Part shown: positions 4,955 through 22,375 of the stretch, one piece after another
How positions within the stretch are numbered: position 1 is the first letter of the stretch
Layout: every line of letters starts with the position of its first letter
Source: Bellilinea caldifistulae
GTDB taxonomy: Bacteria > Chloroflexota > Anaerolineae > Anaerolineales > Anaerolineaceae
NCBI RefSeq assembly: GCF_001306055.1
Contig: NZ_LGHJ01000019.1
Location: 90,001 to 122,000, forward strand
Reading direction: 5' to 3'
DNA length: 32,000 nucleotides
The notes under the pieces: generated by a model
What the model was told of the DNA's origin: nothing
Seen by the model: the letters and a program-made list of their open reading frames with translations, nothing else
Database searches by the model: none
Translations under genes and position numbers: made by a program

Positions 4955-4956
4955 GG

Positions 4957-5539: not shown

Positions 5540-5554
5540 ACAAAATTGAAAGGT

Positions 5555-5950: not shown

Positions 5951-5955
5951 GTTAT

Positions 5956-6261: not shown

Positions 6262-6264
6262 AGG

Positions 6265-7861: not shown

Positions 7862-8239
7862 ATGAAACTGAATGAAATCGTCCAAAAACTGAACGGCAAA
7901 GTTCTCAATTCCAAAATTAATTTGGAAATCGAAGTCAAAGGCGCGGGCGGAGCCGACCTGATGAGCGATGTGCTGGCTTCCATTCAACCTCAGGCCATCT
8001 TACTCACCGGTTTGTGTAACCCCCAAGTTGTACGCACGGCGATGATGGCGGACGTTCTCGCAATTGTCCTTGTGCGCGGGAAAACCCCGCCGGCAGAAAC
8101 CGTGCAACTTGCGGAAAACGAGCGTATTCCGCTCATCAGTACCCCCTTTGGCATGTTTGAAGCCTGCGGTATCCTCTATCAAGCCGGTTTGAGCTGCCTT
8201 GAAAAACCGGTCAGCGATCAGGATTGTTTTGCCGGTTAA
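7862..8239 (+). CDS. DRTGG-domain protein (copy 1)
   Basis: Pattern GADLMSDVLA...ILLTGLCNPQVVRTA...IPLISTPFGMFE is typical of DRTGG domains. Confidence 0.7.
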   Translation: MKLNEIVQKLNGKVLNSKINLEIEVKGAGGADLMSDVLASIQPQAILLTGLCNPQVVRTAMMADVLAIVLVRGKTPPAETVQLAENERIPLISTPFGMFEACGILYQAGLSCLEKPVSDQDCFAG

Positions 8240-8257
8240 GTTTCTTAAGAATTGACA

Positions 8258-9268
8258 ATGACCGAACAGACCCCTCTTCGTAAATCCAGCCTCATCAGTG
8301 ATCAGGAAGCAGAAAACATCACCCGCGTTGAAGAACTGGCGTATGAAATCAAAGTTCAAGAGGTGATGACCCCCAATCCAATCACTATGACCGCCAGCAT
8401 GAAAATGCAGGAAGTGCTGGAACAATTCCGAGTAGCACGTATTTCCGGCGCTCCAATTGTTGAAGAGGGGCAGTTAATTGGCATTATCAGCATAGAAGAC
8501 TTGATTCGCTGTCTGATCAAGTCTGACCTCGAGGCAGAAATCCAAAAGTACATGACCCGCAATCCCTTCACCGTTAAGGGTGATGATCCGGTGGTAGAAG
8601 CCTTGAAAATGTTTGTCAGCACCAAAGTAGGCCGGCTGCCGGTGGTCAACAAAGAAGGCCTATTGATTGGCATTTTGACCAAGGGAGACATCACACGCGG
8701 ATTGCTCAAAGCCCTCCAACAGGATTACCAGACCGAAGAAGTTCGCCGCTATCGTGCCTCTCACCTTTTCGAAGATATCGAATCCGAACGAACCAGCCTG
8801 ATCCTGCGTTACAACATCAAGGCTGGCGATTTCACCCATGGCGGAGAAGCCTCATCCAAAATCAAACGGGCGCTCAGTCGTATGGGTGCCAGTCCGCAGA
8901 TCGCCCGCCGTTGTGGAATTGCCACCTACGAAGCAGAGATGAATCTTATCATCCACACCACGGAGGGAGGTGTGATTCGGGTCGAAATTGAACCTCACCA
9001 GATCTCTATTGATGTTTACGACAGCGGACCGGGAATAAAAGATGTGGAATTAGCCATGAAACCAGGTTACTCAACCGCCAGTGAGAAAGTCCGGGAATTG
9101 GGTTTTGGAGCAGGTATGGGGCTGGTCAACATTTCCCGCTGCGTGGATATCATGAAACTTGAATCCGTATGGGGTAAGGGAACCAGATTGAGGATGAAAA
9201 TCTTCCTCAAAAAAGAAGACACCGTCGGGGAAGGGCATGCTGCCAAATCTTTGGAGGAAAAACGATGA
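8258..9268 (+). CDS. CBS-pair domain fused to a SpoIIAB/RsbW-like GHKL serine-kinase (anti-sigma-factor type HATPase) domain
   Basis: Two CBS repeats (VMTPNPITM...GAPIVEEGQLIGIISIEDL and YMTRNPFTV...RLPVVNKEGLLIGILTKGDI). The C-terminal part carries EAEMNLIIHT, DSGPGI and GFGAGMGL, which match the N, G1 and G2 boxes. The start could be TTG 8252 or ATG 8258. Confidence 0.75.
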   Translation: MTEQTPLRKSSLISDQEAENITRVEELAYEIKVQEVMTPNPITMTASMKMQEVLEQFRVARISGAPIVEEGQLIGIISIEDLIRCLIKSDLEAEIQKYMTRNPFTVKGDDPVVEALKMFVSTKVGRLPVVNKEGLLIGILTKGDITRGLLKALQQDYQTEEVRRYRASHLFEDIESERTSLILRYNIKAGDFTHGGEASSKIKRALSRMGASPQIARRCGIATYEAEMNLIIHTTEGGVIRVEIEPHQISIDVYDSGPGIKDVELAMKPGYSTASEKVRELGFGAGMGLVNISRCVDIMKLESVWGKGTRLRMKIFLKKEDTVGEGHAAKSLEEKR

Positions 9269-9603
9269 ATCTGGAACAAATCATCCAGTCGCTTGATCTG
9301 AAACTGCTGACCGAGCAAAAGCCATTTCATGAAATTCAGCCAACCACTGGTTACGCAGCCGACCTGTTATCTTGCGTAATGACTGGCGCATCACGGGGAG
9401 GGTTGTGGGTGACCTTGCAGGCCCATAGTAATATCGTAGCCGTGGCGGCTTTGCTGGAATTGAGCGCCATCATCATCACCGAAGGGGCACAACCCGATGA
9501 AGCAACCATCCAAAAGGCTAATGACGAAGGGGTGACCCTTTTATCCAGTCAACAAGACACCTATCGGGTGGTGGGCAGGTTGTGGGAACTGGGCATCCGC
9601 TAA
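9265..9603 (+). CDS. DRTGG-domain protein (copy 2)
   Basis: ATGA overlap with the kinase gene. The SD GGAGGA precedes the start. Pattern AADLLSCVM...VTLQAHSNIVAVAA...VTLLSS. Confidence 0.65.
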   Translation: MNLEQIIQSLDLKLLTEQKPFHEIQPTTGYAADLLSCVMTGASRGGLWVTLQAHSNIVAVAALLELSAIIITEGAQPDEATIQKANDEGVTLLSSQQDTYRVVGRLWELGIR

Positions 9604-9646
9604 CTTATCCTCCAGGTAAGCAGGCTCCCATTCAGGGAGGTTCTCT

Positions 9647-10408
9647 TTGAAAACTTATCGGGCAGAATTGCACATTCATACGGTTCTTTCCCCATGTGCG
9701 GAGATTGAAATGCTGCCCCCGTTGATTGTCATGGAATGCCTCGAAAAGGGCATTTCCCTGATCGCCATCACCGATCATAACGCAACCGCTAATATTTCTG
9801 CGGTACAGCAGGCTGCCGAGGGAACGGATTTAACTGTGCTGCCCGGTATGGAAGTTCAAACCCGTGAAGAAGTTCACTCGTTATGTCTGTTTGACACTCT
9901 CGAACAGGCTCTTGCCTGGCAAGCAATTGTTGACCGTCACCTGCCGGCAATCCCCAATCGCCCGGATTATTTCGGCGATCAATTGATTGTAGACGCCAAT
10001 GGCGATTTTCTCAAACGGGAGGAACGGTTGCTCCTCACTTCGGTCAATTTGAGTCTGGCAGATGCATTTCATCAGGTAACCCGGTTGGGTGGATTGTTCA
10101 TCCCCGCCCATGTCAACCGCACCGCAAACGGCTTGTTCCCCATCCTGGGAATGCCCCCTGACGATATTCCATTGGAAGTTATGGAAATTTCTCGTCACCT
10201 GAAACCGGCAGAAGCGGTTAAAATATATCCGGCCTTGCATAGCTACTCGTTGATCCAGAGCGGAGATGCTCATCGCCTGGATGAAATTTCAGGGCTGAAC
10301 CAGTTCACTTTACAATCCCCCACTCTTCAAGAAATTCGACTGGCACTGCGCGGCGAACAGGGACGTTCACACCGTATCCTTTCCAGCACAATCCTCGCCG
10401 GGGAATAA
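9647..10408 (+). CDS. PHP-family metal-dependent phosphoesterase
   Basis: N-terminal ELHIHTVLSPCA motif, then AITDHN, then SGDAHRLDE. TTG start 6 nt after GGGAGG. Confidence 0.8.
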   Translation: MKTYRAELHIHTVLSPCAEIEMLPPLIVMECLEKGISLIAITDHNATANISAVQQAAEGTDLTVLPGMEVQTREEVHSLCLFDTLEQALAWQAIVDRHLPAIPNRPDYFGDQLIVDANGDFLKREERLLLTSVNLSLADAFHQVTRLGGLFIPAHVNRTANGLFPILGMPPDDIPLEVMEISRHLKPAEAVKIYPALHSYSLIQSGDAHRLDEISGLNQFTLQSPTLQEIRLALRGEQGRSHRILSSTILAGE

Positions 10409-10422: not shown

Positions 10423-10440
10423 TTGTTACAACTTTCACAA
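10423..10440. promoter_or_regulatory. Candidate Rex (NADH/NAD-sensing repressor) operator TTGTTAC-AACT-TTCACAA
   Basis: The right half matches the TTCACAA half-site exactly. The left half matches the TTGTTAA variant in 6 of 7 positions. Half-site spacing is 7-4-7. Confidence 0.4.
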
Positions 10441-10532
10441 GGAATGATGACATTTGGTAATTACTTAACCATAAGCAAGCGAGTACACTTTGGATTGATT
10501 ATCCACAATTAATTCTACCAATTTCGTCCAAT

Positions 10533-10550: not shown

Positions 10551-11066
10551 ATGTTAAACACCAAACCCTCCATACCAGCCAATGATCCACTGGCTAACCC
10601 CGAACAAAAAAAACTGATTGATGAGATTCTGGAAAAAAACAAGAACCTCCCCGGTGCAACGATGGTCGTGCTCAACGAGCTTCAAAGCCGGATTGGTTTT
10701 ATTTCCGAAGCCATGCAGCAATATGTTGCCGACAAACTGCATGTACCGGTCAGTTCGGTTCATGGGGTCGTTTCTTTTTATTCTTTCTTCACCACCACCC
10801 CCCGCGGTAAGCACACCATCAAGTTCTGCATGGGTACAGCCTGTTATGTTGGTGGTATGCCTCAGTTGATTGACAAAGCCAAATCCTTGCTGGGGGTCGA
10901 ACCGGGACAAACCACACCCGATGGTGAAATCACCCTCGAAGTATGCCGCTGCGTTGGTGCTTGCAGTCAGGCTCCGGTTGTCGTTGTGGATGACAAAATC
11001 GTTGGGCGTCTCCGCCCTAATAAATTCCCTCAGGTTTTACGTTCCATTCAGGATAGCAAGCAGTGA
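10551..11066 (+). CDS. NuoE/HoxE/HydC-like [2Fe-2S] diaphorase subunit (copy 1)
   Basis: Cluster motifs CMGTAC and CRCVGAC. Context SFYSFF...PRGKHTIKFC. Confidence 0.85.
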   Translation: MLNTKPSIPANDPLANPEQKKLIDEILEKNKNLPGATMVVLNELQSRIGFISEAMQQYVADKLHVPVSSVHGVVSFYSFFTTTPRGKHTIKFCMGTACYVGGMPQLIDKAKSLLGVEPGQTTPDGEITLEVCRCVGACSQAPVVVVDDKIVGRLRPNKFPQVLRSIQDSKQ

Positions 11067-11617
11067 GAGAACTTTCCCTTCACCTGCTGGATATCGCCGA
11101 AAATAGCATCGCAGCCGGCGCGAAAAATATCACCATCACCATCCGGGAGGATACCACCGCCGACCGGTTGTACCTCAGTGTTCAGGATGATGGTAAAGGC
11201 ATGGATGAGGAAATGGTCAAAAAAGTAACCGATCCTTTCGTGACCACCCGCACTACCCGCAAGGTTGGGCTGGGCATTCCTCTCCTGAAAGCCGCCGCCG
11301 AAGCATGCAATGGCTGGCTGAAAATACATTCCAAAGTTGGTGAAGGGACATTGGTTGAGGTGGAATTTCAACGCAGCCACATTGACCGGATGCCGTTGGG
11401 TGATATTGCCGGAACTTTTCTCACTTTGCTGGTTGGAAACCCACAAATTCACTGGGTTTTCCGTTACAGTGTGGATCAGGAGACCTTCGAACTGGACGAT
11501 CAGCAGATTAAACAAGAATTGCAGGACGTCCCCCTTTCCGATCCACTGGTACTTTCTTACTTGCGCGAATTGCTGGAAAGTAATGTTCGATCACTTCAAT
11601 CCATTTCAGTTTATTAA
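11063..11617 (+). CDS. Stand-alone GHKL (histidine-kinase-like) ATPase-domain protein with no DHp or sensor domain
   Basis: N box LLDIAENSIAAGA, G1 box DDGKGMD and G2 box GLGIPLL, followed by about 70 aa of unknown fold. GTGA overlap with the nuoE-like gene. Confidence 0.7.
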   Translation: MRELSLHLLDIAENSIAAGAKNITITIREDTTADRLYLSVQDDGKGMDEEMVKKVTDPFVTTRTTRKVGLGIPLLKAAAEACNGWLKIHSKVGEGTLVEVEFQRSHIDRMPLGDIAGTFLTLLVGNPQIHWVFRYSVDQETFELDDQQIKQELQDVPLSDPLVLSYLRELLESNVRSLQSISVY

Positions 11618-11659
11618 GCGGATGAATTCCTTCATCAATCCGTAGAGAGGAGATTTACC

Positions 11660-12028
11660 ATGCCGACCATCAAAAGTTTAGACGATTTGAAAAGAATCCG
11701 TGAGGAAGCTCTGGAAAAACGCAAAGTAAAAACTGCCTCAGGCCAGGTTCAGGTGATCGTAGGAATGGGTACTTGCGGGATTGCCGCCGGTGCACGCGAC
11801 GCCATGAAAGCCATCCTCGAAACCATCCAGAATGAGAATCTTGAAGGTGTGATTGTCACCCAGACCGGTTGCATCGGCCTGTGCGAGAAAGAACCCATTG
11901 TCCAGGTTGTTGTTGGCGACCAGCCCAAAGTGACCTACGGCAAGGTCTCGCCGGATGTAGCCCGTCAGATCATGAAAGAACACGTCAAGAACGGTAATGT
12001 GCTTAAAGAATACGTAATTCAGGTTTAA
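11660..12028 (+). CDS. Thioredoxin-like [2Fe-2S] ferredoxin (HydD-like)
   Basis: Motifs GMGTCGIAAGA and TGCIGLCEKEP. The SD GAGGAG precedes the ATG. Confidence 0.7.
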   Translation: MPTIKSLDDLKRIREEALEKRKVKTASGQVQVIVGMGTCGIAAGARDAMKAILETIQNENLEGVIVTQTGCIGLCEKEPIVQVVVGDQPKVTYGKVSPDVARQIMKEHVKNGNVLKEYVIQV

Positions 12029-12074
12029 GCCTCTTATCGGTAAACCATTTTTGTAAGGCTAAAGGTTGACAGCT

Positions 12075-13856
12075 ATGAAATACTATCGCTCACATGTTTT
12101 AGTCTGTGTAGACCCGGAATGTCTTCAGAAAGGCGCCCATGAGTTGGTGGATGCCTTGCAGGATGAACTGGTCGCTACCGGCCTGATTGATGAAGTGCAG
12201 GTGCTGGAAACATCCCGCATTGGTGGATGCAGTTTAGGCCCGGAGATGATGGTGTATCCTGAGGGTGTCCATTATGTTGGAGTCACACCCGATGATGTGC
12301 CCTATCTGGTGGAAGAACACTTTCTAAAAGGGCGGGTTGTCAATAAATTCCAGATGCCCACCACCAAAGTTGTAGATGAAGAGCTTGGCGCCCCAACCCA
12401 AAAAGAAGTCCGCATTGTTCTGCGCAATTGCGGAAAAATCGACCCGGAGAATATCGAGGACTACATTGCCGAAGACGGTTATCAGGCGCTTGCCAAAGTC
12501 CTCACCGAAATGACCCCCGAAGAAGTCATTGATACCGTCCTCAAATCCGGTCTGCGCGGCCGCGGTGGGGCCGGTTTTCCGACCGGTAAAAAGTGGCAAT
12601 TTACCCGTCAGGCACCGGGGGATATCAAATATGTGGTGTGCAACGCCGACGAAGGTGACCCTGGCGCTTTCATGAACCGCCGTGTACTCGAAGGTGACCC
12701 TCATTCGGTAATTGAGGGAATGATCATTGCTGCCTACGCAATCGGCGCTCATCAAGGGTATATCTACTGCCGTGCCGAGTATCCGGTTGCGGTATCCACC
12801 CTGAACATTGCCATCCAGCAAGCCCGCAATTTGGGTTTGTTAGGAAAAGATATCCTGGGCAGCGGTTTCGATTTTGACCTTGAAGTACGCATGGGCGCCG
12901 GTGCGTTTGTGTGCGGTGAGGAAACCGCCTTGATCGCCTCCATTGAAGGCCGTCGCGGTGAACCTCGTCCGCGTCCACCTTTCCCGGCTGTACAGGGCTT
13001 GTGGAACAAACCGACCAACGTCAACAACGTTGAAACCTACGCCAACATTCCGCAAATCATTCTTAAGGGCGCGGAATGGTACGCCAGTTACGGCACCGAA
13101 AAAAGCAAAGGCACCAAAACCTTTGCACTGGCCGGTGATCTGAATCACACTGGCCTGATCGAAGTGCCTTTGGGAATCACCCTTCGCGAGATCATTTATG
13201 ATGTTGGCGGCGGCATCAAAGATGGAAAAGCCTTCAAAGCCGTCCAGATTGGCGGGCCGATGGGTGGCTGTGTCCCGGCCGAGTATCTCGATCTTCCGCT
13301 CGATTACGAATCACTTGCTCAGGCTGGCACCATTATGGGCTCCGGCGGTATGATCGTTTTGGATGAAGATACCTGCATGGTAGATGTCGCCCGCTACTTT
13401 ATGGATTTTACCCAAGATGAAAGCTGCGGAAAATGTACTCCCTGCCGGGTTGGTACACGCCGCATTCTGGAAATCCTCACCCGAATTTGCGACGGCAAAG
13501 GGCAGGATGGTGACATCGAATTACTCGAAAATCTTTGTCAGGAAATTCGTACCAACAGCCTGTGTGGATTGGGTCAAGGGGCACCCAACCCGGTAGTCAG
13601 CACTCTGCGCTATTTCCGTGACGAGTACGAAGCCCACATTTACGAAAAACGCTGCCCGGCCAAAGTCTGCCGCGCTTTGATCCGCTATGAAATTCTGCCC
13701 GATGCTTGCACGGGTTGTACGGTTTGCGCCCGCAACTGCCCGGTTAACGCCATCAGCGGTGAGCGCCGCCAGACGCATGTTATTGACCCGGATACCTGCA
13801 TCCGCTGCGGTATTTGTATGCAAGTTTGTAACTTCAACGCAGTGGTCATCGAATAA
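12075..13856 (+). CDS. Long NuoF/HydB-type flavoprotein: N-terminal thioredoxin-like domain, FMN/NAD(H) core, [4Fe-4S] site, and a C-terminal 2x[4Fe-4S] ferredoxin domain
   Basis: Motifs GRGGAGFPTGKKW, CNADEGDPGAF, ESCGKCTPCRVG and NSLCGLG. The C-terminus carries CTGCTVCARNCP and CIRCGICMQVC. The start could be ATG 12075 or TTG 12066. Confidence 0.85.
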   Translation: MKYYRSHVLVCVDPECLQKGAHELVDALQDELVATGLIDEVQVLETSRIGGCSLGPEMMVYPEGVHYVGVTPDDVPYLVEEHFLKGRVVNKFQMPTTKVVDEELGAPTQKEVRIVLRNCGKIDPENIEDYIAEDGYQALAKVLTEMTPEEVIDTVLKSGLRGRGGAGFPTGKKWQFTRQAPGDIKYVVCNADEGDPGAFMNRRVLEGDPHSVIEGMIIAAYAIGAHQGYIYCRAEYPVAVSTLNIAIQQARNLGLLGKDILGSGFDFDLEVRMGAGAFVCGEETALIASIEGRRGEPRPRPPFPAVQGLWNKPTNVNNVETYANIPQIILKGAEWYASYGTEKSKGTKTFALAGDLNHTGLIEVPLGITLREIIYDVGGGIKDGKAFKAVQIGGPMGGCVPAEYLDLPLDYESLAQAGTIMGSGGMIVLDEDTCMVDVARYFMDFTQDESCGKCTPCRVGTRRILEILTRICDGKGQDGDIELLENLCQEIRTNSLCGLGQGAPNPVVSTLRYFRDEYEAHIYEKRCPAKVCRALIRYEILPDACTGCTVCARNCPVNAISGERRQTHVIDPDTCIRCGICMQVCNFNAVVIE

Positions 13857-13904
13857 CCCAGTCCGTCACACTGATCGTCCGAATCAGACCAAAGGAGGAA
13901 AAGT

Positions 13905-14384
13905 ATGAGCGTTGAAACCAAAAGCAGCGAAAAGATACTCGAAGCGGTCAATGCTGCCATCGAAAAGTTCGGTGCAAAGCAAGAGGAATTGATTCCCATC
14001 CTGAACGAGGTAAACCGCCAATTGGGCTACATCCCAACCGAGGCGATGGAAGAAATCAGCCGCCGCTTGAAAGAACCCAAGAGCAGTTTATTTGGGGTAG
14101 CCAGTTTCTACCACATGCTCTCCACCAAACCGCGCGGGCGACACGTTATCCAATTCTGCGAAAGTGCACCTTGCCATGTGGTCGGCGGACGAGAGGTATT
14201 CGAAGCCCTGAAAGAAGAACTGGGTCTGGAGCCCAATGAAACCTCTCCGGACGGAAAATGGACGCTGATCACCACCAGCTGTCTGGGAGTTTGCTCGGTC
14301 GGACCGGTGATTGTGATTGACGAAGACATCTACGGTAATGTGGATGCCCGAAAGGTCCCGGAAATTTTAGCGCGGTATGAGTGA
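13905..14384 (+). CDS. NuoE/HoxE/FdsG-like [2Fe-2S] diaphorase subunit (copy 2)
   Basis: Motifs CESAPC and CLGVCSVGP. The SD AAAGGAGG precedes the ATG. Confidence 0.85.
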   Translation: MSVETKSSEKILEAVNAAIEKFGAKQEELIPILNEVNRQLGYIPTEAMEEISRRLKEPKSSLFGVASFYHMLSTKPRGRHVIQFCESAPCHVVGGREVFEALKEELGLEPNETSPDGKWTLITTSCLGVCSVGPVIVIDEDIYGNVDARKVPEILARYE

Positions 14385-14396
14385 AGGAGGTGCCCG

Positions 14397-16037
14397 ATGA
14401 AAATGACTCGTTCAATGGTACTGGTCTCCAGTGATCCTATCAGCATGCAGCTCGGAGCGCAGGAAGTCTTTCAGGCATTACAGGACCAAATCAAAGCCTT
14501 CGGCCTGGAGGATGAAATCTCTTTAACCATGATTGGTGATGTAGGCCGCCATGATGCCCTTCCGCTGGTCATCGTTTATCCGGAAGCGGTCATCTATGGG
14601 CCGGTTACACCGGATAAAGTCCCTTATCTGGTTGAGGAACACCTTTACAAAGGGCGGATTGCCGAAGAACTGGTTGCCTCGGTTCGCGAATTGAGCGGCA
14701 GAATTGCGTGGTTGCATGCCCGCAAAGGCACCTTACCCGCCGAACAGAGGATTGTCCTCCGGCGGGCCGGCATCATTGACCCGACCAGTATCGAGGACTA
14801 CATCCTCAACGATGGTTACATAGCGCTTGGGAAAGTCCTCACCAGCATGACTCCGGAAGAGGTCATTGAGGAGGTTAAAAAATCCGGTCTGCGCGGGCGG
14901 GGAGGTGCTGGCTTTCCAACCGGCACCAAATGGGGGTTCGTCGCCCGCGAGAAATCCGACAAAAAGTACATCATCTGCAATGCCGATGAGTCCGAACCCG
15001 GCACATTCAAAGATCGCCTGATTTTGGAAGGAGACCCCCACAGCATGATCGAGGCGATGGCCATTGCCGGTTATGCGGTTGGCGCAGATGAAGGCTACAT
15101 TTACGTACGCGGCGAATACCTGCTGGCTCAGGAACGCCTCAAAAAAGCCATCAAGGATGCCCATGAGATGGGCTTTCTGGGAAAGAATATCTTCGGCACC
15201 GATTTCAATTTTGAAATTCACATCCACGCGGGGGCTGGAGCATACATCTGCGGTGAAGAAACCGCACTGATCGAATCCATTGAAGGTAAACGCGGACAAC
15301 CCCGCTCACGTCCGCCCTATCCGACAACCTTTGGTTTGTGGGGTAAACCCACCGTGATTAATAACGTCGAAACGCTGGCTAACATTCCCCCCATCATCAA
15401 CAACGGTGCAGATTGGTATCGCAGTTTCGGCACACCCAGCAGCCCCGGCACCAAAGTGTATACCATCCTGGGAAATGTGAACGTCACCGGTTTAATCGAA
15501 GTTCCCATGGGCATCACCCTCAGAGAAGTCATCGCCATTTACGCCAAGGGCATGAAAAATGGCTCCAACTTCAAACTGGCGCAGACCGGTGGCTCAAGCG
15601 GCTCGATCATTCCCGCATCGCTGCAGGACACCCCAATGGACTTCGACTCCTACGCCAAAGCCGGTGTTTCGCTGGGTTCGGGTGCTTTGTTGATCTGCAA
15701 CGAAGATACCTGCGTGGTAGATCTGGCAAAAGTGCTGTTGAATTTCTTCCGGGTTGAATCCTGCGGAAAATGCAACCCCTGCCGAATCGGTACTCAAAGA
15801 GCCTGGGAAATGCTGGATAAAATCTCGAAAGGTCAGGCTTCCCTGAGCGACCTCGACAAATTGGCAGAACTTTCCGAAAATCTGTACATGTTATCCAACT
15901 GCGGTTTAGGGCAAACCGCCGGCACCCCCTTGCGCGATATTTTGAATTACTTCCGCGCCGAAGTGGAGGCTCATATCCGCCTGAAGATTTGCCCCGCCGG
16001 AGTTTGCAAAATGGAGGAGATGATCCCCCAACCCTGA
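14397..16037 (+). CDS. Short NuoF/HoxF/FdsB-type flavoprotein: cysteine-free N-terminal thioredoxin-like domain and no C-terminal ferredoxin domain
   Basis: Motifs GRGGAGFPTGTKW, CNADESEPGTF, ESCGKCNPCRIG and SNCGLGQ. The N-terminal roughly 100 aa align with copy 1 (VPYLVEEH..KGR) but contain no Cys. Confidence 0.85.
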   Translation: MKMTRSMVLVSSDPISMQLGAQEVFQALQDQIKAFGLEDEISLTMIGDVGRHDALPLVIVYPEAVIYGPVTPDKVPYLVEEHLYKGRIAEELVASVRELSGRIAWLHARKGTLPAEQRIVLRRAGIIDPTSIEDYILNDGYIALGKVLTSMTPEEVIEEVKKSGLRGRGGAGFPTGTKWGFVAREKSDKKYIICNADESEPGTFKDRLILEGDPHSMIEAMAIAGYAVGADEGYIYVRGEYLLAQERLKKAIKDAHEMGFLGKNIFGTDFNFEIHIHAGAGAYICGEETALIESIEGKRGQPRSRPPYPTTFGLWGKPTVINNVETLANIPPIINNGADWYRSFGTPSSPGTKVYTILGNVNVTGLIEVPMGITLREVIAIYAKGMKNGSNFKLAQTGGSSGSIIPASLQDTPMDFDSYAKAGVSLGSGALLICNEDTCVVDLAKVLLNFFRVESCGKCNPCRIGTQRAWEMLDKISKGQASLSDLDKLAELSENLYMLSNCGLGQTAGTPLRDILNYFRAEVEAHIRLKICPAGVCKMEEMIPQP

Positions 16038-16064
16038 ATCTTACTTGTTTGGAGATTTGATATC

Positions 16065-16943
16065 ATGGCCGTAGAAAACAACGTAATTTCCATTGACGCT
16101 CTTATGCCTGCCGAAATGGCCCAGAAAGCAGAAGCCATTGGCGTGAAAAAAGCCAATCTGGCTTTCTGGCCCCTGTTTGCTTTATCCATCCTGGCCGGCG
16201 CATTTATCGGATTAGGTGCAATTTTTGCCACCACGGTCAGCGCTGGTTCAGCAGCCTTGCCCTATGGGGTTGCCCGTTTGTTGACCGGTCTGGTGTTTAC
16301 GCTTGGCCTTATTCTGGTCATTGTCGGTGGTGCGGAGCTGTTCACCGGCAACAACCTGATCATCATGGCTTTCACCAATGGCAAAGTCACCCTAAAAGGG
16401 CTTATACGCAACTGGGTGATCGTCTATTTCGGTAATTTTGTTGGTTCGGTTGCCACGGCCGTACTCATGTTTTTCACCCGCCAATACACTTTTGGAAACG
16501 GTTCGATTGGCTTGGCTGCGCTGAATATCGCCAATAGCAAGGTCAACCTTGAATTTGTGCAGGCCATTGCCCTCGGTATTATGTGCAATGCGATGGTCTG
16601 TATGGCAGTTTGGCTGTGTTACTCGGCGCGTTCCACCACGGATAAAATCCTTGCCATCATTCCGCCCATCAGCGGCTTTGTGGCATGTGGTTTTGAACAC
16701 TCGATTGCCAATATGTACTTTATCCCGTTGGGATTGTTCATCAAGCAATTCGCCCCGGCTTCTTTTTGGGAATCGAAAGCCCTGGTGGATGCCGGCGTAA
16801 CCATCGAAAAATTTACCAATCTAACCTGGCAGGGTTTTTTCGTCAACAATCTCTTGCCGGTCACCATCGGTAACATCATTGGCGGGGCAGTACTGGTTGG
16901 ACTGGTCTACTGGTTCATTTTTCTGAAAAAATGGAGTAAGTAA
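16065..16943 (+). CDS. focA: Formate/nitrite transporter family channel
   Basis: FNT signatures LGLILVIVGGAELFTGN and CGFEHSIANMYF. About six hydrophobic helices. Confidence 0.85.
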   Translation: MAVENNVISIDALMPAEMAQKAEAIGVKKANLAFWPLFALSILAGAFIGLGAIFATTVSAGSAALPYGVARLLTGLVFTLGLILVIVGGAELFTGNNLIIMAFTNGKVTLKGLIRNWVIVYFGNFVGSVATAVLMFFTRQYTFGNGSIGLAALNIANSKVNLEFVQAIALGIMCNAMVCMAVWLCYSARSTTDKILAIIPPISGFVACGFEHSIANMYFIPLGLFIKQFAPASFWESKALVDAGVTIEKFTNLTWQGFFVNNLLPVTIGNIIGGAVLVGLVYWFIFLKKWSK

Positions 16944-16973
16944 GCCACTTAAGCCTTGGAAGGACTGGAGATT

Positions 16974-19739
16974 ATGGTTCAAATCAAAATTAATGGCATA
17001 GAATTGGATGTTCCAAAGGGAACAACCGTTTTAGAGGCTGCCGAAAAAGCGGGGATTACCATCCCAACCCTTTGCTATCATAAAGACCTGTCTCCCTATG
17101 GGGGCTGCCGTCTGTGCATTGTTGAACTCAAGGGCGGACGAGTGCCGATGACCTCTTGTACCCTGCCGGTAGAAAACGGCATGGAAGTGCAAACCGAAAC
17201 GGAAAGCCTGCGAAAATCTCGCCGCACCATTCTGGAACTGCTCCTCTCCACCTACTACGATTCCGGTTACGCCCAAAAAGACGAACACCCGAACGAATTG
17301 GAATACTGGGCAACCGCCTACGGTTTGGACATGAAAGCCTTCATGGCTGAAAAACCCCGCTATGAGGTCAACAGCGATCCCAATCCATTCGTTTGGGTTG
17401 ATTTAAATAAATGTATTCTGTGCGGCCGTTGCGTCCGCGCCTGCGCGGAGGTTCAGGGACGCTTTGTCTGGGGGCTTTCCGAACGTGGTTATGAGGCCCG
17501 CATCGTAGCCGGCCTGGACGAACCCATGCTGGAAGCGCGTTGTGAATCGTGCGGCGCATGTGTGGCTTACTGCCCCACGGGCGCGCTGGATAACAAGATG
17601 TCGGTTGGACTCGGCGCGCCGGATAAGGTTGTACGCACCACCTGTTCTTACTGCGGGGTTGGCTGTCAGTTTGACTTGAATGTTAAGGATGGCAAAATTA
17701 TCCGTGTGACCTCGACGCCGGATGCGCCGGTCAACGGTATGCGATTGTGCGTCAAGGGCCGCTATGGCTATGATTATGTTCATCATCCAGACCGCTTGAC
17801 CCAGCCCATGGTGCGAGAGTACCTGCTGAAAGGCGAACCTCGCAAAGACAAGAAGAACCGCGGTGAATGGGTCAAGGTGGATTGGGATACCGCCCTGAAC
17901 ATTGTGGCCGGTAAGCTCAATCAAATCCGCACTGAAAGCGGCGCTGACAGCATTGGGGTGTTGAGTTCGGCCAAATGCACCAATGAAGAAAACTACTTGA
18001 TGAATAAGTTTGCGCGGCAGGTACTGGGCACCAACAATATTGACCATTGCGCCCGTCTCTGCCACGCCAGTACCGTAGCCGGTTTGGCGATTTCCTACGG
18101 TTCTGGGGCCATGTCCAACACTATGCAGGATATTGTTGAAAATGCTCAGGCGATTTTCGTCACCGGCTCGAATACCACCGAACAGCACCCGGTCTTCGGT
18201 ACAATGATTCGGCAGGCGGTACTGAAACGCGGCGTCAAATTGATTGTGGCTGACCCCCGCCGGATTGATCTGGTGGACTTTGCCACCCTTCACCTGCAAC
18301 AAAGACCCGGTACCGACATCGCCCTGCTCAACGGCTTGATGAACATTATCCTCCAAAAAGGCTGGGCGGATGAACAATTCATTGCCGAGCGCACCGAAGG
18401 ATTTGACGAATTCAAAGCCAACCTGCAAAATTACCCGCCGGAAAAAGTTTCTGAAATTACCGGCGTCCCTCTCGAGCAGTTGTATCAGGCTGCCGAGATC
18501 ATGGGAACCTGCAAACCCATGGCCGTTTTCTGGGCAATGGGCATCACTCAGCACATTGTCGGCGTTCAGAATGTCCTAACCCTGGCCAATTTGCAGATGC
18601 TGTTGGGTAACATGGGTGTGCCGGGCGGCGGCGTGAACCCACTGCGCGGTCAGAATAATGTACAGGGCGCCTGCGATATGGGCGGGCTGCCAAATGTGTA
18701 TCCGGGCTATCAACCGGTCGCCTCCGATGCTGCCCGCGGAAAGTTTGAAACCGCTTGGGGCGTATCTCTTTCTCCCAAACCCGGCATGACCGTTACCGAA
18801 ATGATCCCTGCAGATGGAGAAGGTAAAATCCGAGCGCTTTACATCCTCGGCGAAAATCCGGTCATGACCGATCCGGACGTCAATCACGTCCGCCATTGTT
18901 TGGAAGAACTGGAATTCCTGGTTTTGCAGGAAATCTTCCCTTCCGAAACTTCGGCATACGCCGATGTGCTGCTGCCCGGTGTAACCTTCGCTGAAAAAGA
19001 AGGCACTTTTACGAATACCGAACGGCGGATTCAGCGCGTCCGTAAAGCCGTTGAGCCGGTTGGTCAATCCCGCCCCGATTGGGAGATCATCAGCGACCTG
19101 GCGCGGCGGATGATCGCCGTCAGCAACCGTAAACCCGCTGAAGCCCCACAATCCGGGTGGAATTACGGCTCACCTGCCGAGATCATGGATGAAGTTGCCA
19201 GCATCACACCATCCTACGCCGGCGTCAGCTATGAACGTCTGGATCGTGGTGAAAATCTTCACTGGCCAGTCAAGGGATACGATCACCCCGGCACGCCAAT
19301 TTTGCATATTGGTCAATTTACCCGTGGTAAAGGCCTCTTTTCACCCACCACTGATGTGCCGCCTGCCGAAAAGCCGGATGCCGAATTCCCAATGCTGATG
19401 AACACCGGGCGTGTTCTGTATCACTGGCACGGCGGCGAAATGACCCGTCGCGCCAAAGGGCTGATGGAGGTTTATCCCAAACCACTCATCGAATTGAACC
19501 CCGAAGATGCCTTGCGGATTGGTATTAACGGCAATCGAATGGTCAAAATCACCTCACGGCGTGGCAGCATTGTTTCAGAAGCCTGGGTAACCAATCGTGT
19601 TCCTGAAGGTATGGTTTACGCCAATTTTCACTTCCCGGAATCCAATGCCAACGAGTTGACCATCGCCGCGCTCGATCCAATTGCAAAAATCCCGGAATTC
19701 AAGATCACAGCTGTAAAGGTAGAATTAGCGGATGAATAA
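16974..19739 (+). CDS. fdhA: Formate dehydrogenase alpha subunit, Cys type: N-terminal [2Fe-2S] plus 2x[4Fe-4S] module fused to a bis-MGD catalytic domain
   Basis: Motifs CYHKDLSPYGGCRLC, CILCGRCVRAC, CESCGACVAYCP and CSYCGVGC. Active-site HCARLCHAS (Cys-His, no in-frame TGA). LRGQNNVQGACDMG carries the catalytic Arg context. Start moved to ATG 16974. Confidence 0.85.
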   Translation: MVQIKINGIELDVPKGTTVLEAAEKAGITIPTLCYHKDLSPYGGCRLCIVELKGGRVPMTSCTLPVENGMEVQTETESLRKSRRTILELLLSTYYDSGYAQKDEHPNELEYWATAYGLDMKAFMAEKPRYEVNSDPNPFVWVDLNKCILCGRCVRACAEVQGRFVWGLSERGYEARIVAGLDEPMLEARCESCGACVAYCPTGALDNKMSVGLGAPDKVVRTTCSYCGVGCQFDLNVKDGKIIRVTSTPDAPVNGMRLCVKGRYGYDYVHHPDRLTQPMVREYLLKGEPRKDKKNRGEWVKVDWDTALNIVAGKLNQIRTESGADSIGVLSSAKCTNEENYLMNKFARQVLGTNNIDHCARLCHASTVAGLAISYGSGAMSNTMQDIVENAQAIFVTGSNTTEQHPVFGTMIRQAVLKRGVKLIVADPRRIDLVDFATLHLQQRPGTDIALLNGLMNIILQKGWADEQFIAERTEGFDEFKANLQNYPPEKVSEITGVPLEQLYQAAEIMGTCKPMAVFWAMGITQHIVGVQNVLTLANLQMLLGNMGVPGGGVNPLRGQNNVQGACDMGGLPNVYPGYQPVASDAARGKFETAWGVSLSPKPGMTVTEMIPADGEGKIRALYILGENPVMTDPDVNHVRHCLEELEFLVLQEIFPSETSAYADVLLPGVTFAEKEGTFTNTERRIQRVRKAVEPVGQSRPDWEIISDLARRMIAVSNRKPAEAPQSGWNYGSPAEIMDEVASITPSYAGVSYERLDRGENLHWPVKGYDHPGTPILHIGQFTRGKGLFSPTTDVPPAEKPDAEFPMLMNTGRVLYHWHGGEMTRRAKGLMEVYPKPLIELNPEDALRIGINGNRMVKITSRRGSIVSEAWVTNRVPEGMVYANFHFPESNANELTIAALDPIAKIPEFKITAVKVELADE

Positions 19740-19822
19740 GCTATGAGAATGTGTGGTTTAACGGTAGCGGTATTTACAAGCAAAGAACCATTCATAAATC
19801 ATTGAGAAGGAGAGTGTCTGGA

Positions 19823-21781: not shown

Positions 21782-21817
21782 GATTTATTGGAAAGGATTT
21801 TGGAAGGAGGATCACTA

Positions 21818-22360: not shown

Positions 22361-22375
22361 GAGGAGGTGTTCACA

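What the first reader, a model, noticed from the sequence alone, without database searches (positions are those of the whole stretch)
7862..10408. DRTGG / CBS-GHKL serine-kinase-like / DRTGG / PHP phosphoesterase cassette upstream of the redox operon: a possible non-canonical partner-switching module with no H2 sensor
Seen in the sequence:
- The four genes are tightly linked (8252/8258 follows 8239, and 9265 overlaps 9268 as ATGA) and lie immediately upstream of the hydrogenase/FDH operon on the same strand.
- The kinase-like domain is of the SpoIIAB/RsbW anti-sigma type, not a DHp-containing histidine kinase.
- It is fused to a CBS pair, a domain type that in other proteins binds adenosyl ligands.
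- It is bracketed by two small single-domain DRTGG proteins and followed by a PHP phosphoesterase.

Inference:
- The layout resembles kinase + substrate(s) + phosphatase, as in STAS/PP2C partner-switching. Here DRTGG proteins would replace STAS and PHP would replace PP2C.
- From memory, similar domain sets accompany sensory [FeFe] hydrogenases (HydS/hfs-type clusters) in Firmicutes and Thermotogae. No sensory hydrogenase or PAS protein is present here, so the input may be energy or redox charge sensed through the CBS pair.
- The biochemical logic of this cassette is, to my knowledge, uncharacterised.
Basis: partly seen in the sequence, partly recalled or inferred. Interest (0 to 1): 0.75.

Follow-up and report, generated by a model that had tools for sequence, protein, structure and literature searches.

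The report
Energy-sensing regulatory cassette for hydrogenase operon
Four small regulatory genes in front of a hydrogenase/formate-dehydrogenase operon are the adenine-nucleotide-sensing (CBS) version of a widespread, uncharacterised signalling cassette that normally carries a hydrogen-sensor protein and that appears to act through the redox repressor Rex.

Summary
The four genes are real, at the stated coordinates, in Bellilinea caldifistulae (Chloroflexota). The order DRTGG1, CBS-kinase, DRTGG2, PHP recurs across more than 12 phyla, and 39 of 44 well-flanked loci lie beside NuoE/NuoF-type redox enzyme genes.

The kinase domain is SpoIIAB-like by sequence profile and by fold.

- **Sensor swap:** the same cassette, with positionally orthologous DRTGG1, DRTGG2 and PHP, occurs around group D/M2e putative sensory [FeFe] hydrogenases. 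There the same kinase is fused to, or next to, the H-cluster protein. Here the CBS pair takes the place of that H2 sensor.
- **Rex link:** DRTGG1 is fused to the redox repressor Rex in a family of at least 120 protein clusters. The rex gene precedes DRTGG1 in seven loci. A Rex box lies between PHP and nuoE in the window.
- **Fifth member:** a small standalone HATPase (11063-11617) also belongs to the system.

Both DRTGG paralogues keep an invariant D-x-x-S motif, which could be a phospho-acceptor. Against the strict partner-switching analogy, DRTGG is not STAS-like, and PHP resembles Endonuclease Q and nucleotide phosphoesterases rather than known PHP protein phosphatases. Phosphotransfer is untested.

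Verdict: a new variant of a recognised but uncharacterised system, and worth experiments.

The parts
7862..8239 (+). DRTGG1: small single-domain DRTGG protein (125 aa). The invariant motif D32-L-M-S35-D36 has its Ser35 codon at 7964-7966. This is the member that is fused to Rex in other lineages.
   Evidence: - Pfam DRTGG 1.4e-8.
- AlphaFold model pLDDT 86.8, with Ser35 at the N-terminus of helix 34-40.
- Foldseek best hits are AF1212 and the CBS-PPase DRTGG domain.
- Conservation across loci.
- Rex-DRTGG1 fusions.
8258..9268 (+). Sensor kinase (336 aa from ATG 8258; alternative TTG start at 8252). It has an N-terminal CBS pair (about nt 8351-8716), a long helix and a disordered linker. The C-terminal SpoIIAB-type GHKL domain lies at about nt 8804-9217.
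   Evidence: - Domains.
- Invariant N box E227/E229/N231, G1 D257-x-G-x-G, and G2 G284-F-G-x-G-x-G-L-x-N (338-aa numbering).
- SpoIIAB is the best PDB match by profile (2.6e-12) and by fold.
- The domain arrangement is undefined in the model (pTM 0.47).
9265..9603 (+). DRTGG2: paralogue of DRTGG1 (112 aa), translationally coupled to the kinase through the ATGA overlap. Invariant residues are Y30, D33-L-L-S36, T50, H54 and N56. The Ser36 codon is at 9370-9372.
   Evidence: - Pfam DRTGG 4.1e-8.
- hhalign against DRTGG1 gives 99.9% probability and 24% identity, with the D-L-x-S motif aligned.
- Conservation across loci.
- ATGA overlap read directly.
9647..10408 (+). PHP-family metal-dependent phosphoesterase (253 aa). 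Its metal-ligand set is conserved: H9, H11, D43, H44, E69, H77, H155, D207 and H209. S15 and C17 are also conserved.
   Evidence: - Pfam PHP.
- Invariant residues across 41-63 orthologues.
- The best solved relative is Endonuclease Q, covering most of the PHP domain in two stretches (8.6e-17). Next come pAp-phosphatase, RNase AM-like proteins and TM0559.
- A GGAGG precedes the TTG start.
10423..10440 (.). Rex-operator-like palindrome TTGTTACAACTTTCACAA. It has 2 mismatches to TTGTGAANNNNTTCACAA and lies in the PHP-nuoE1 intergenic region, upstream of a conserved promoter-like element.
   Evidence: - It is the only match with 2 or fewer mismatches in 32 kb, against 0.20 expected.
- Rex boxes lie 23-38 nt upstream of nuoE1 in the related loci L002, L005, L011, L012 and L013.
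- Rex boxes also lie upstream of DRTGG1 or rex in other loci.
- The consensus, and a Rex site before the C. bescii hyd operon, are in PMC6391272.
10551..11066 (+). NuoE/HydC-like 2Fe-2S subunit, the first gene of the regulated redox operon.
   Evidence: - Pfam 2Fe-2S_thioredx 1.8e-45 and NCBIfam HoxE/NuoE.
- It is fused to the small HATPase in L151 and L152.
11063..11617 (+). Fifth conserved member: a standalone histidine-kinase-type ATP-binding domain (184 aa) with no DHp. A conserved S-H-x-D-x-x-P-x-G motif follows the ATPase core.
   Evidence: - Pfam HATPase_c 7.5e-17.
- The profile hits HK catalytic domains (KinB 5.3e-16), and the C-terminal 80 aa have no PDB match.
- It is present in 38 of 44 CBS-type and 23 of 26 HydS-type loci.
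- It is fused to PHP in L098 and to NuoE in L151 and L152.
11660..23800 (+). The rest of the target operon: 2Fe-2S ferredoxin, NuoF, a second NuoE/NuoF pair, the FocA formate channel, FdhA, a NuoG-like subunit, and the NiFe small and large subunits.
   Evidence: Pfam and NCBIfam scans.

Best explanation
This is the CBS-sensor version of a conserved signalling cassette dedicated to operons for NuoE/NuoF-containing (Bfu/HydBC-type) redox enzymes.

**Core and sensor.** The core has a SpoIIAB-type Ser/Thr kinase, two paralogous DRTGG proteins, a PHP phosphoesterase and a small standalone HATPase. The sensor is exchangeable. In most lineages it is a group D/M2e [FeFe]-hydrogenase-like H2 sensor, fused or adjacent to the kinase. 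Here, and in many other phyla, it is an N-terminal CBS pair, which most likely binds an adenosine-containing ligand that reports energy or redox charge.

**Proposed mechanism (inferred).**
1. Ligand occupancy of the CBS pair sets the activity of the kinase.
2. The kinase binds DRTGG1 and DRTGG2 and phosphorylates them on the invariant Ser of the D-x-x-S motif.
3. The PHP enzyme resets them.
4. DRTGG1 passes the state on to the NADH-sensing repressor Rex, whose operator lies between PHP and nuoE1.
5. Transcription of the hydrogenase/FDH operon therefore integrates NADH/NAD+ (through Rex) with a second signal (adenylate here, H2 elsewhere).

The small HATPase and PHP may form a second branch that acts on the NuoE subunit.

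**Shown:** gene content, conserved order, the sensor swap, SpoIIAB-type fold and motifs, intact PHP metal site, Rex-DRTGG1 fusions, rex synteny and Rex boxes.

**Inferred:** ligand identity, phosphotransfer, PHP substrate, a physical DRTGG1-Rex contact when the two are separate proteins, and the sign of regulation.
For: 1. **Conserved order.** Counts are from 80 genome loci spanning more than 12 phyla.
   - A DRTGG gene lies upstream of the kinase in 63 of 75 loci and downstream in 66 of 76.
   - PHP lies within 2 kb in 58 of 72.
   - The small HATPase is present in 38 of 44.
   - NuoE and NuoF are present in 39 of 44.
2. **Variable catalytic partner.** It can be [FeFe] HydA, FdhA, a NiFe hydrogenase, a NuoG-HdrA fusion or a NuoF-GltD fusion, so the constant partner is the NuoEF module.
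3. **Sensor swap.**
   - The kinase domain is 45-53% identical to the N-terminal HATPase_c_2 of proteins carrying Fer4 + Fe_hyd_lg_C + PF04060.
   - In 80 metagenome loci found with these proteins, the gene upstream of the kinase/sensor is DRTGG1-type in 56 of 63 loci and the gene downstream is DRTGG2-type in 50 of 59. PHP follows in 44 of 49.
4. **Kinase competence.** N, G1 and G2 boxes are invariant in 37 diverse homologues. SpoIIAB is the best structural relative.
5. **Candidate acceptor.** The D-x-x-S motif is kept widely.
   - DRTGG1: Ser35 is invariant in 58 CBS-type sequences, and the motif is found in 52 of 54 HydS-type ones.
   - DRTGG2: Ser36 is invariant in 60 CBS-type sequences, and the motif is found in 51 of 51 HydS-type ones.
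   - Rex fusions: 118 of 120.
   - The Ser sits at a helix N-terminus after a strand.
6. **Rex link.**
   - Rex-DRTGG1 fusion proteins occur in L086, L091, L151 and L152, and in a family of at least 120 clusters in Thermoleophilia, followed by kinase/HydS, DRTGG2, PHP, HATPase and the hydrogenase genes.
   - A rex gene lies directly upstream of DRTGG1 in 7 loci.
   - Rex boxes lie before nuoE, DRTGG1 or rex in many loci and in the window.
   - Rex sites before hyd operons are documented (PMC6391272).
7. **CBS pair.** Canonical ribose-binding motifs are present. The closest folds are adenine-nucleotide-, Ap4A- or SAM-bound CBS pairs.
Against: - No experiment shows phosphotransfer.
- The DRTGG fold matches DRTGG domains, the HprK/P N-domain and the MurE N-domain, not STAS. 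All known SpoIIAB-family substrates are STAS proteins (established knowledge).
- The PHP protein is nearest to Endonuclease Q and nucleotide phosphoesterases, not to the PHP protein phosphatases CpsB/YwqE.
- A rex gene was not looked for elsewhere in the Bellilinea genome; none is in the window or in the 10-kb flanks of the Anaerolineae loci.
- The window's Rex box has 2 mismatches, and 19 of 100 shuffled windows contain one match somewhere.
- In many phyla the cassette sits inside the operon, between nuoF and the catalytic gene. The HATPase-NuoE and PHP-HATPase fusions point to an enzyme-level target rather than, or as well as, Rex.
- Five of 44 well-flanked loci lack adjacent NuoEF genes; three of the five are spirochaetes.
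- The locus samples are the best 80 hits of each scan. They are not a random or phylogenetically corrected sample.
Confidence: 0.5

Rival explanations
1. Enzyme-level control. The cassette regulates the assembled NuoEF-type complex post-translationally, by phosphorylation of, or ATP-dependent binding to, NuoE/HydC or NuoF. The small HATPase and PHP would be the effector pair. Rex co-location would only reflect shared regulon membership. This reading is not exclusive of the main explanation.
For: - In Cloacimonadota, Bacteroidota, Planctomycetota and others the cassette lies between nuoF and the catalytic subunit gene, inside the operon.
- The small HATPase lies between nuoE and the ferredoxin gene in the window and in Firmicutes.
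- There are HATPase-NuoE fusions (L151, L152) and a PHP-HATPase fusion (L098).
- No DNA-binding domain is present in the window's cassette.
Against: - The Rex-DRTGG1 fusions form a large family and are hard to explain without a transcriptional output.
- The fusions that support this rival are few: one locus, and two near-identical loci.
Confidence: 0.25
2. No phospho-relay. The DRTGG proteins are small-molecule-binding or adaptor subunits. The GHKL domain works as an ATP-dependent binding switch, sequestering a partner as an anti-sigma factor does. The PHP enzyme hydrolyses a nucleotide or phosphodiester signal, not a phosphoprotein.
For: - DRTGG folds resemble nucleotide- or ligand-binding N-domains of MurE and HprK/P, and the regulatory insert of CBS-pyrophosphatase.
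- The nearest PHP relatives cleave nucleic acids or nucleotides.
- SpoIIAB itself also acts by binding (established knowledge).
Against: - The kinase catalytic motifs, including the N-box Glu, are invariant.
- An invariant Ser in both DRTGG paralogues, absent at the aligned position in AF1212, suggests an acquired acceptor.
- PHP and both DRTGG proteins are kept whether the sensor is a CBS pair or an H-cluster protein. So PHP is not there to process a CBS ligand specifically.
Confidence: 0.2
3. The proteins are maturation or assembly factors (flavin, FeS or cofactor insertion) for the NuoEF module, not regulators.
For: - Tight operon linkage with NuoEF regardless of the catalytic subunit.
- PHP proteins can have non-regulatory roles.
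Against: - Exchangeable sensor domains, a SpoIIAB-type kinase and fusion to the transcription factor Rex are hallmarks of signalling.
- Some cassettes occur without nearby NuoEF genes.
- Purified, structurally solved HydABC complexes do not need such subunits (own knowledge, not checked here).
Confidence: 0.04
4. Chance juxtaposition or a defence/mobile module unrelated to the redox operon.
For: The PHP N-terminus weakly resembles TrlF-type proteins, and the CBS pair weakly resembles an anti-phage CBS protein, in NCBIfam. Both are far below the cut-offs.
Against: - There are no PADLOC hits.
- Gene order and context are conserved in more than 150 loci across many phyla.
Confidence: 0.01

Closest known systems
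Group D (M2e) putative sensory [FeFe]-hydrogenase clusters upstream of trimeric bifurcating hydrogenases, for example TamHydS, Cthe_0335, Athe_1292, Csac_1857 and Teth39_1463 (PMC3561251, PMC8163306, PMC13104023)
   Same: - Same cassette: DRTGG1, HATPase_c_2 kinase, DRTGG2, PHP and the small HATPase, next to NuoE/Fdx/NuoF.
- The kinase domain is 41-53% identical, and the flanking genes are positionally orthologous.
- Signal transduction is unknown in both.
   Different: - The sensor differs. Here an N-terminal CBS pair is fused to the kinase and no H-cluster protein is encoded.
- The regulated enzymes here are FDH and a NiFe hydrogenase, not [FeFe] HydA.
- The papers read here mention only a 'kinase' or a 'regulator' next to HydS, and no paper in the library links DRTGG or PHP proteins, or a DRTGG-Rex connection, to hydrogenases.
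SpoIIAB-SpoIIAA-SpoIIE and RsbW-RsbV-RsbU/P partner-switching modules
   Same: - The kinase domain is SpoIIAB-type by profile (2.6e-12) and by fold (TM about 0.78), with N, G1 and G2 boxes.
- It is flanked by small candidate substrate proteins that carry an invariant Ser, and by a metal-dependent phosphoesterase.
   Different: - There is no STAS protein, since DRTGG has a different fold.
- There is no PP2C domain.
- There is no sigma factor.
- The likely output is the repressor Rex or the enzyme itself.
- The kinase carries its own sensor domain.
Group C HydS (PAS) / hfsABCD systems with Ser/Thr kinase and PP2C phosphatase (Ruminococcus albus, Thermoanaerobacterium saccharolyticum; PMC5707799)
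   Same: A proposed sensor plus kinase and phosphatase that regulates hydrogen and fermentation genes. Genetic evidence for a regulatory role exists in that system.
   Different: That system has PAS and PP2C domains and no DRTGG or PHP. Its kinase was not compared with the one here.
Rex regulon control of hydrogenase operons (Ravcheev 2012, cited in PMC6391272)
   Same: An operator of the TTGTGAAN4TTCACAA type lies directly upstream of nuoE/hydC, as for Athe_1295 in C. bescii.
   Different: Rex is known as a stand-alone NADH sensor. A DRTGG partner or DRTGG fusion has not been described in the library searched.
CBS-pyrophosphatase regulatory insert and SpxR/YtoI-type regulators (CBS + DRTGG in one polypeptide)
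   Same: A CBS pair and a DRTGG domain occur together in adenine-nucleotide or Ap4A-dependent regulation. The DRTGG fold matches at 5e-7.
   Different: - Here the DRTGG proteins are separate genes.
- They persist when the CBS pair is replaced by HydS, so they belong to the kinase core and not to the CBS sensor.
Endonuclease Q and related PHP phosphoesterases (COG1379)
   Same: This is the best solved homologue of the PHP protein across most of the domain (8.6e-17). The metal ligands are conserved.
   Different: The PHP protein lacks the zinc-finger and C-terminal DNA-binding domains of EndoQ (253 versus 400 aa). Its genomic context gives no link to DNA repair.

Membership tests
SpoIIAB/RsbW-type (HATPase_c_2) serine kinases | GHKL fold closest to SpoIIAB, with no DHp/H-box dimerisation domain | tested here: met
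   - The profile hits SpoIIAB at 2.6e-12 and RsbW at 1.8e-5, with HK catalytic domains at 1e-4 or weaker.
- Foldseek matches SpoIIAB at TM 0.77-0.79.
- Between CBS2 and the ATPase the model shows only a helix and a disordered linker, and no His is conserved there.
SpoIIAB/RsbW-type (HATPase_c_2) serine kinases | Intact ATP-binding and catalytic motifs (N box E..N, G1 DxGxG, G2 GxGxG) | tested here: met
   E227, E229, N231, D257, G259, G261, G284, G286, G288 and G290 are invariant in 37 diverse homologues.
Partner-switching module (anti-sigma kinase / STAS antagonist / PP2C phosphatase) | The substrate or antagonist is a STAS-domain protein | tested here: not met
   No STAS domain was found by Pfam. 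The top 50 Foldseek matches of the DRTGG1 model contain no STAS/SpoIIAA structure.
Partner-switching module (anti-sigma kinase / STAS antagonist / PP2C phosphatase) | PP2C (SpoIIE/RsbU-type) phosphatase | tested here: not met
   The phosphoesterase is PHP-family, with no PP2C domain.
Partner-switching module (anti-sigma kinase / STAS antagonist / PP2C phosphatase) | The kinase phosphorylates a conserved Ser/Thr of the small partner | not testable with these tools
   The only evidence is indirect: Ser35 and Ser36 are invariant within a shared D-x-x-S motif at a helix N-terminus.
Partner-switching module (anti-sigma kinase / STAS antagonist / PP2C phosphatase) | The output is a sigma factor bound by the kinase | tested here: not met
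   No sigma factor turned up in the window ORFs scanned or in the neighbourhoods of L161/L162. Rex is the recurrent DNA-binding neighbour and fusion partner.
Group D/M2e HydS-associated regulatory cluster | Conserved genes DRTGG1, HATPase_c_2 kinase, DRTGG2, PHP and small HATPase next to NuoE/NuoF genes | tested here: met
   Gene maps of 80 + 80 loci, with orthology by best HMM.
Group D/M2e HydS-associated regulatory cluster | Presence of the H-cluster (Fe_hyd_lg_C + C-terminal FeS) sensory protein | tested here: not met
   No Fe_hyd_lg_C domain was found in the window ORFs scanned. The CBS pair occupies the sensor role.
PHP-family protein phosphatases (CpsB/YwqE type) | Detectable sequence relationship to CpsB/YwqE | tested here: not met
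   The profile search of the PDB at E<=10 lists EndoQ, pAp-phosphatase-like proteins, RNase AM, TM0559, PolC, YcdX and HisPPase, but no CpsB or YwqE.
PHP superfamily metal-dependent phosphoesterases | Conserved HxH, D/H, E, H, H and DxH metal ligands | tested here: met
   D43, H44, E69, H155, D207 and H209 are invariant in 41 orthologues; H9, H11 and H77 are kept in at least 90% of them.
Rex regulon member | Rex operator in the promoter region | tested here: met
   TTGTTACAACTTTCACAA at 10423-10440 has 2 mismatches, with 0.20 such matches expected per window. Rex boxes lie 23-38 nt upstream of nuoE1 in 5 related loci.
Rex regulon member | A rex gene in the same genome, and binding of Rex to the site | not tested
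Binding needs an EMSA.
CBS-domain adenosyl-ligand sensors | Bateman pair with G-h-h-S/T-x-x-D/N ribose-phosphate motifs | tested here: met
   The motifs are GIISIED and GILTKGD, and the pattern is kept in 37 homologues. The fold matches AMP-, ADP-, ATP-, Ap4A- or SAM-bound CBS pairs. The ligand itself is untested.

The most novel reading that the evidence does not exclude
A previously unrecognised class of bacterial partner switch. In it, SpoIIAB-type kinases phosphorylate DRTGG-domain proteins instead of STAS proteins. A PHP enzyme resets them instead of a PP2C phosphatase. The output is direct gating of the NADH-sensing repressor Rex instead of a sigma factor. The sensors are plug-in modules: an H-cluster protein for H2, or a CBS pair for adenylate or redox nucleotides. 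This would explain how group D 'sensory' hydrogenases signal. It would also show that many anaerobes tune electron-bifurcating enzymes to energy charge as well as to NADH.
Probability: 0.35. Interest if true: 0.85.

Novelty: new variant of a known kind. Interest (0 to 1): 0.7.

Why it matters
Electron-bifurcating hydrogenases and formate dehydrogenases set the H2, formate and NADH balance of fermenters, syntrophs and gut and digester communities. How they are regulated beyond Rex is unknown.

The hydrogenase field states explicitly that the signalling partners of group D sensory hydrogenases are unidentified (PMC13104023, April 2026). This analysis contributes three things:

- **Concrete candidates.** It names two DRTGG proteins, a SpoIIAB-type kinase, a PHP enzyme and a small HATPase.
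- **An output.** It ties these proteins to Rex through a large family of natural Rex-DRTGG fusions.
- **A second input.** It shows that the same core is used with a CBS sensor in more than 12 phyla, which implies an energy-charge or nucleotide signal.

All of this can be tested directly with purified proteins, and genetically in tractable thermophiles. It is also relevant to engineering H2 and ethanol yields.

Tried and rejected
- **STAS-like fold for DRTGG:** rejected. The Foldseek top 50 contain only DRTGG, HprK/P N-domain, MurE N-domain and weaker unrelated folds, with no STAS/SpoIIAA structure.
- **PHP as a CpsB/YwqE-type protein phosphatase:** no detectable relationship even at E<=10.
- **DRTGG as an accessory of the CBS pair (as in CBS-pyrophosphatase):** rejected as the primary role, because both DRTGG genes persist in cassettes that have HydS instead of CBS.
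- **DRTGG2-PHP fusions suspected from long 'PHP' ORFs:** domain mapping showed these are ORF-start artefacts. Only the Rex-DRTGG1, PHP-HATPase and HATPase-NuoE fusions are real.
- **The roughly 430-aa N-terminal extensions of the L087/L090 sensor kinases:** in L090, the one whose sequence was read, the extension is a low-complexity high-GC reading-frame artefact; L087 is assumed to be the same.
- **Defence-system reading:** no PADLOC hits.
- **Literature:** searches for DRTGG + hydrogenase, PHP/CBS + bifurcating hydrogenase, and Bfu + kinase found nothing that describes the cassette.
- **Structure prediction:** The kinase model gives no defined CBS-kinase orientation (pTM 0.47).
- **Terminator-like hairpin at 9625-9639:** the number of such sites is at chance level (5 found, 5.9 expected).
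- **Rex box upstream of DRTGG1 in the window:** none found with 3 or fewer mismatches.

Full report
**What is in the sequence.** The window comes from Bellilinea caldifistulae (Chloroflexota, Anaerolineae); the kinase is 100% identical to WP_061917509.1.

- DRTGG1: 7862-8239, 125 aa.
- CBS-CBS-HATPase protein: 8252/8258-9268. RefSeq uses ATG 8258, giving 336 aa.
- DRTGG2: 9265-9603, 112 aa.
- PHP protein: 9647-10408, 253 aa.

I read the junctions directly. The stop TAA is at 8237-8239. The ATGA overlap is at 9265-9268. A GGAGG precedes the TTG start of PHP.

Upstream lies divergent hisS with tRNA-His. Downstream lie these genes:
- NuoE, a 184-aa standalone HATPase, a 2Fe-2S ferredoxin and NuoF
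- a second NuoE/NuoF pair
- FocA and FdhA
- a NuoG-like protein and the NiFe small and large subunits
- HypABFCDE

No PAS or Fe-hydrogenase domain was found among the window ORFs scanned. Public annotation gives all cassette proteins only generic names.

**The kinase.**
- A profile of the C-terminal domain finds SpoIIAB (2.6e-12, nearly full length) and RsbW (1.8e-5) ahead of every histidine-kinase catalytic domain.
- The AlphaFold model (pLDDT 82) matches five SpoIIAB entries at TM 0.77-0.79.
- The N box (E227, E229, N231), G1 (D257-x-G-x-G) and G2 (G284-F-G-x-G-x-G-L-x-N) are invariant in 37 homologues down to 32% identity.
- There is no DHp or H-box. CBS2 runs into a long helix and a disordered linker, and the domain orientation is undefined (pTM 0.47).
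- The CBS pair carries the canonical GIISIED and GILTKGD ribose-binding motifs. It matches CBS pairs solved with AMP, ADP, ATP, Ap4A or SAM.

**Conservation and context.** One scan of about 186,000 species genomes returned 80 loci. They come from Chloroflexota, Thermodesulfobacteriota, Planctomycetota, Cloacimonadota, Bacteroidota, Fidelibacterota, Nitrospirota, Atribacterota, Verrucomicrobiota, Kiritimatiellia, Spirochaetota, Thermotogae and others. I annotated them with the window's own proteins.

| Feature | Loci |
|---|---|
| DRTGG gene just upstream of the kinase | 63 of 75 |
| DRTGG gene just downstream of the kinase | 66 of 76 |
| PHP within 2 kb | 58 of 72 |
| Small HATPase in the locus | 38 of 44 |
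| NuoE and NuoF in the locus | 39 of 44 |
| A catalytic subunit in the locus | 37 of 44 |

The catalytic partner varies. It can be [FeFe] HydA, FdhA, a NiFe hydrogenase, a 1090-aa NuoG-HdrA-like fusion or a NuoF-GltD fusion. The constant partner is therefore the NuoEF (Bfu/HydBC) module.

In several phyla the cassette sits inside the operon, between nuoF and the catalytic gene. Of the five well-flanked loci without adjacent NuoEF genes, four carry only part of the cassette (three spirochaetes and one treponeme relative) and one (L021) lies beside NiFe hydrogenase genes; in the two whose neighbours were scanned, other flavoenzyme genes lie nearby. These samples are the best-scoring hits, not a corrected census.

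**The sensor swap.**
- An exhaustive HMMER search showed that the nearest non-CBS relatives of the kinase domain (45-53% identity) are N-terminal domains of 430-600-aa proteins. These proteins carry 4Fe-4S motifs, Fe_hyd_lg_C and the PF04060 C-terminal FeS motif. This is the architecture described for group D/M2e putative sensory hydrogenases such as TamHydS (PMC8163306, PMC13104023).
- A metagenome scan seeded with these proteins returned 80 loci. Their layout is DRTGG1, then the kinase (140 aa) and sensor (about 450 aa), then DRTGG2, PHP, the small HATPase, and NuoE/Fdx/NuoF/HydA.
- The kinase and sensor are fused in 12 loci and split in 64.
- Among the loci where such a neighbour was called, the upstream neighbour is DRTGG1-type in 56 of 63 and the downstream neighbour is DRTGG2-type in 50 of 59. 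PHP follows in 44 of 49.

The CBS pair in Bellilinea occupies the sensor slot of a core that elsewhere uses an H2 sensor. Because both DRTGG genes and PHP persist regardless of the sensor, they belong to the kinase core and not to the CBS pair.

**The DRTGG proteins.**
- DRTGG1 and DRTGG2 are paralogues (hhalign 99.9%, 24% identity).
- Both keep an invariant D-L-[LM]-S motif (Ser35 and Ser36).
- In HydS-type cassettes the motif is present in 52 of 54 DRTGG1 and 51 of 51 DRTGG2.
- In the DRTGG1 model (pLDDT 86.8) the Ser sits at the N-terminus of a helix after a strand. This is a plausible acceptor position.
- The archaeal DRTGG protein AF1212 has Leu at the aligned position.
- The fold matches DRTGG structures, the HprK/P N-domain and the MurE N-domain, not STAS.

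**The PHP protein.**
- Metal ligands H9, H11, D43, H44, E69, H77, H155, D207 and H209 are conserved.
- The closest solved relative is Endonuclease Q, covering most of the PHP domain in two stretches (8.6e-17). Then come pAp-phosphatase-like proteins, RNase AM and TM0559.
- CpsB and YwqE do not appear even at E<=10.
- It is probably an active phosphoesterase, but its substrate class is open.

**The Rex connection (new here).**
- A gene with the Rex domains (Put_DNA-bind_N + CoA_binding) lies directly upstream of DRTGG1 in seven loci and is divergent in another.
- In L086, L091, L151 and L152, Rex and DRTGG1 form one polypeptide.
- A database search with that fusion found at least 120 clusters of 307-409 aa, almost all covering at least 93% of the fusion and so both halves. 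Where a source names the organism it is Thermoleophilia. They are annotated simply as Rex, because the precomputed Pfam hits miss the DRTGG part. The DRVSDLL motif is present in 118 of 120.
- Two long contigs show Rex-DRTGG1 followed by kinase/HydS, DRTGG2, PHP, HATPase, NuoE, Fdx, NuoF and HydA.
- In the window, the only match to the Rex operator consensus with 2 or fewer mismatches is at 10423-10440, in the 142-nt PHP-nuoE1 spacer. The expectation is 0.20 per 32 kb.
- Related Anaerolineae have Rex boxes 23-38 nt before nuoE1, next to a shared promoter-like element. Other loci have them before DRTGG1 or rex. Of 33 hits in 2 Mb, 22 are intergenic.
- A Rex site 39 nt upstream of the five-gene hyd operon of C. 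bescii is documented (PMC6391272).

**The fifth gene.**
- The 184-aa HATPase (11063-11617) is a histidine-kinase-type catalytic domain without DHp. It is followed by a conserved S-H-x-D-x-x-P-x-G motif and an 80-aa tail with no solved relative.
- It is annotated 'histidine kinase' in C. thermocellum as Cthe_0339 (PMC3990059).
- It lies either after PHP or between nuoE and the ferredoxin gene.
- It is fused to PHP in one locus and to NuoE in two near-identical loci.
- This hints at a second, enzyme-directed branch.

**Interpretation.**
- *Well supported:* this is a dedicated signalling cassette for NuoEF-type redox operons with an exchangeable sensor.
- *Most likely mechanism:* a sensor-controlled SpoIIAB-type kinase acts on the two DRTGG proteins at the invariant Ser. 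PHP reverses this. DRTGG1 communicates with Rex, adding a second input to NADH sensing (adenylate or a related nucleotide here, H2 elsewhere). This mechanism is inferred, not shown.
- *Resemblance to partner switching:* it works like a partner switch but fails three defining membership features: STAS, PP2C and a sigma factor.
- *Rivals:* enzyme-level control through the small HATPase, PHP and NuoE; a non-phosphorylating binding switch with PHP acting on a nucleotide; and, unlikely, a maturation role.

**Literature.**
- As late as April 2026 it calls for identifying the interaction partners (PMC13104023).
- In the library searched, no paper connects DRTGG or PHP proteins, or a DRTGG-Rex link, with hydrogenases.
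- The finding is therefore a new (CBS-sensor) variant of a recognised but mechanistically uncharacterised system. It makes an open question directly testable.

Noticed in passing
L086:2018-3193, L151:5897-6991, L152, L161:9001-10146, L162:9001-10113; proteins P0390-P0509: There is a large family of Rex proteins with an unannotated C-terminal DRTGG domain. It has at least 120 clusters of 307-409 aa, from Thermoleophilia where named. Public names and the precomputed Pfam hits show only the Rex domains.
   Followed up: yes
window 11063-11617; L151:9838-11127; L098:2271: The small standalone HATPase inside the nuoE-nuoF cluster has a conserved S-H-x-D-x-x-P-x-G motif after the ATPase core, reminiscent of an H-box but C-terminal to the core. 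It also occurs fused to NuoE and, once, to PHP. Its role is unknown.
   Followed up: partly
window 10551-23800: The operon encodes two NuoE/NuoF pairs, a FocA formate channel, FdhA, and a NuoG-like subunit with a molybdopterin-like domain next to the NiFe small and large subunits. This suggests a formate/H2/NADH enzyme system built on two bifurcating-type modules. Its composition was not analysed further.
   Followed up: no
window 24385-24957: A 190-aa protein with a cyclic-nucleotide-binding domain and no detected DNA-binding domain lies between the hydrogenase genes and hypA. It may be another regulatory input.
   Followed up: no
window 23802-24347: A 181-aa ORF directly after the NiFe large subunit has no Pfam hit. 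It recurs after HoxH-like genes in L016, L021, L024 and L059. It may be a divergent maturation protease or accessory protein.
   Followed up: no
window 1-6336: The region next to tRNA-His (6263-6336, - strand) mostly has lower GC (0.43-0.50 against about 0.52). Most of its ORFs have no Pfam hit. It also holds a ParA-like ATPase (3293-4060) and an HTH_17/MerR excisionase-like protein (5555-5950). It looks like an element integrated at tRNA-His.
   Followed up: no
L045:6643-9936, L038:12372-15650, L023:12539-15787: Proteins of about 1090 aa fuse a NuoG-type N-terminus (2Fe-2S and 4Fe-4S) to an HdrA-like flavoprotein. They are encoded after the cassette and before NiFe hydrogenase genes in Cloacimonadota, Bacteroidota and others. 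This is an unusual NuoEF-HdrA-NiFe combination.
   Followed up: partly
proteins P0233, P0254, P0260, P0269: Relatives of the kinase domain (about 45% identity) carry a 130-aa N-terminal region with no Pfam hit. This may be a third sensor type for the same kinase core.
   Followed up: no
L066:8788-19792 (Breznakiella homolactica); L060 (Sphaerochaeta): In spirochaetes the cassette, often without DRTGG1, is not next to NuoEF genes. In L066 it lies near the glutamate synthase genes GltB/GltD, and in L060 near an FMN reductase. Its target may be different there.
   Followed up: partly
window 10495-10513: A degenerate second half-palindrome (TTGGATTGATTATCCACAA) lies downstream of the promoter-like -10 element. 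It aligns with the Rex boxes of related Anaerolineae and may be a weak second operator.
   Followed up: no
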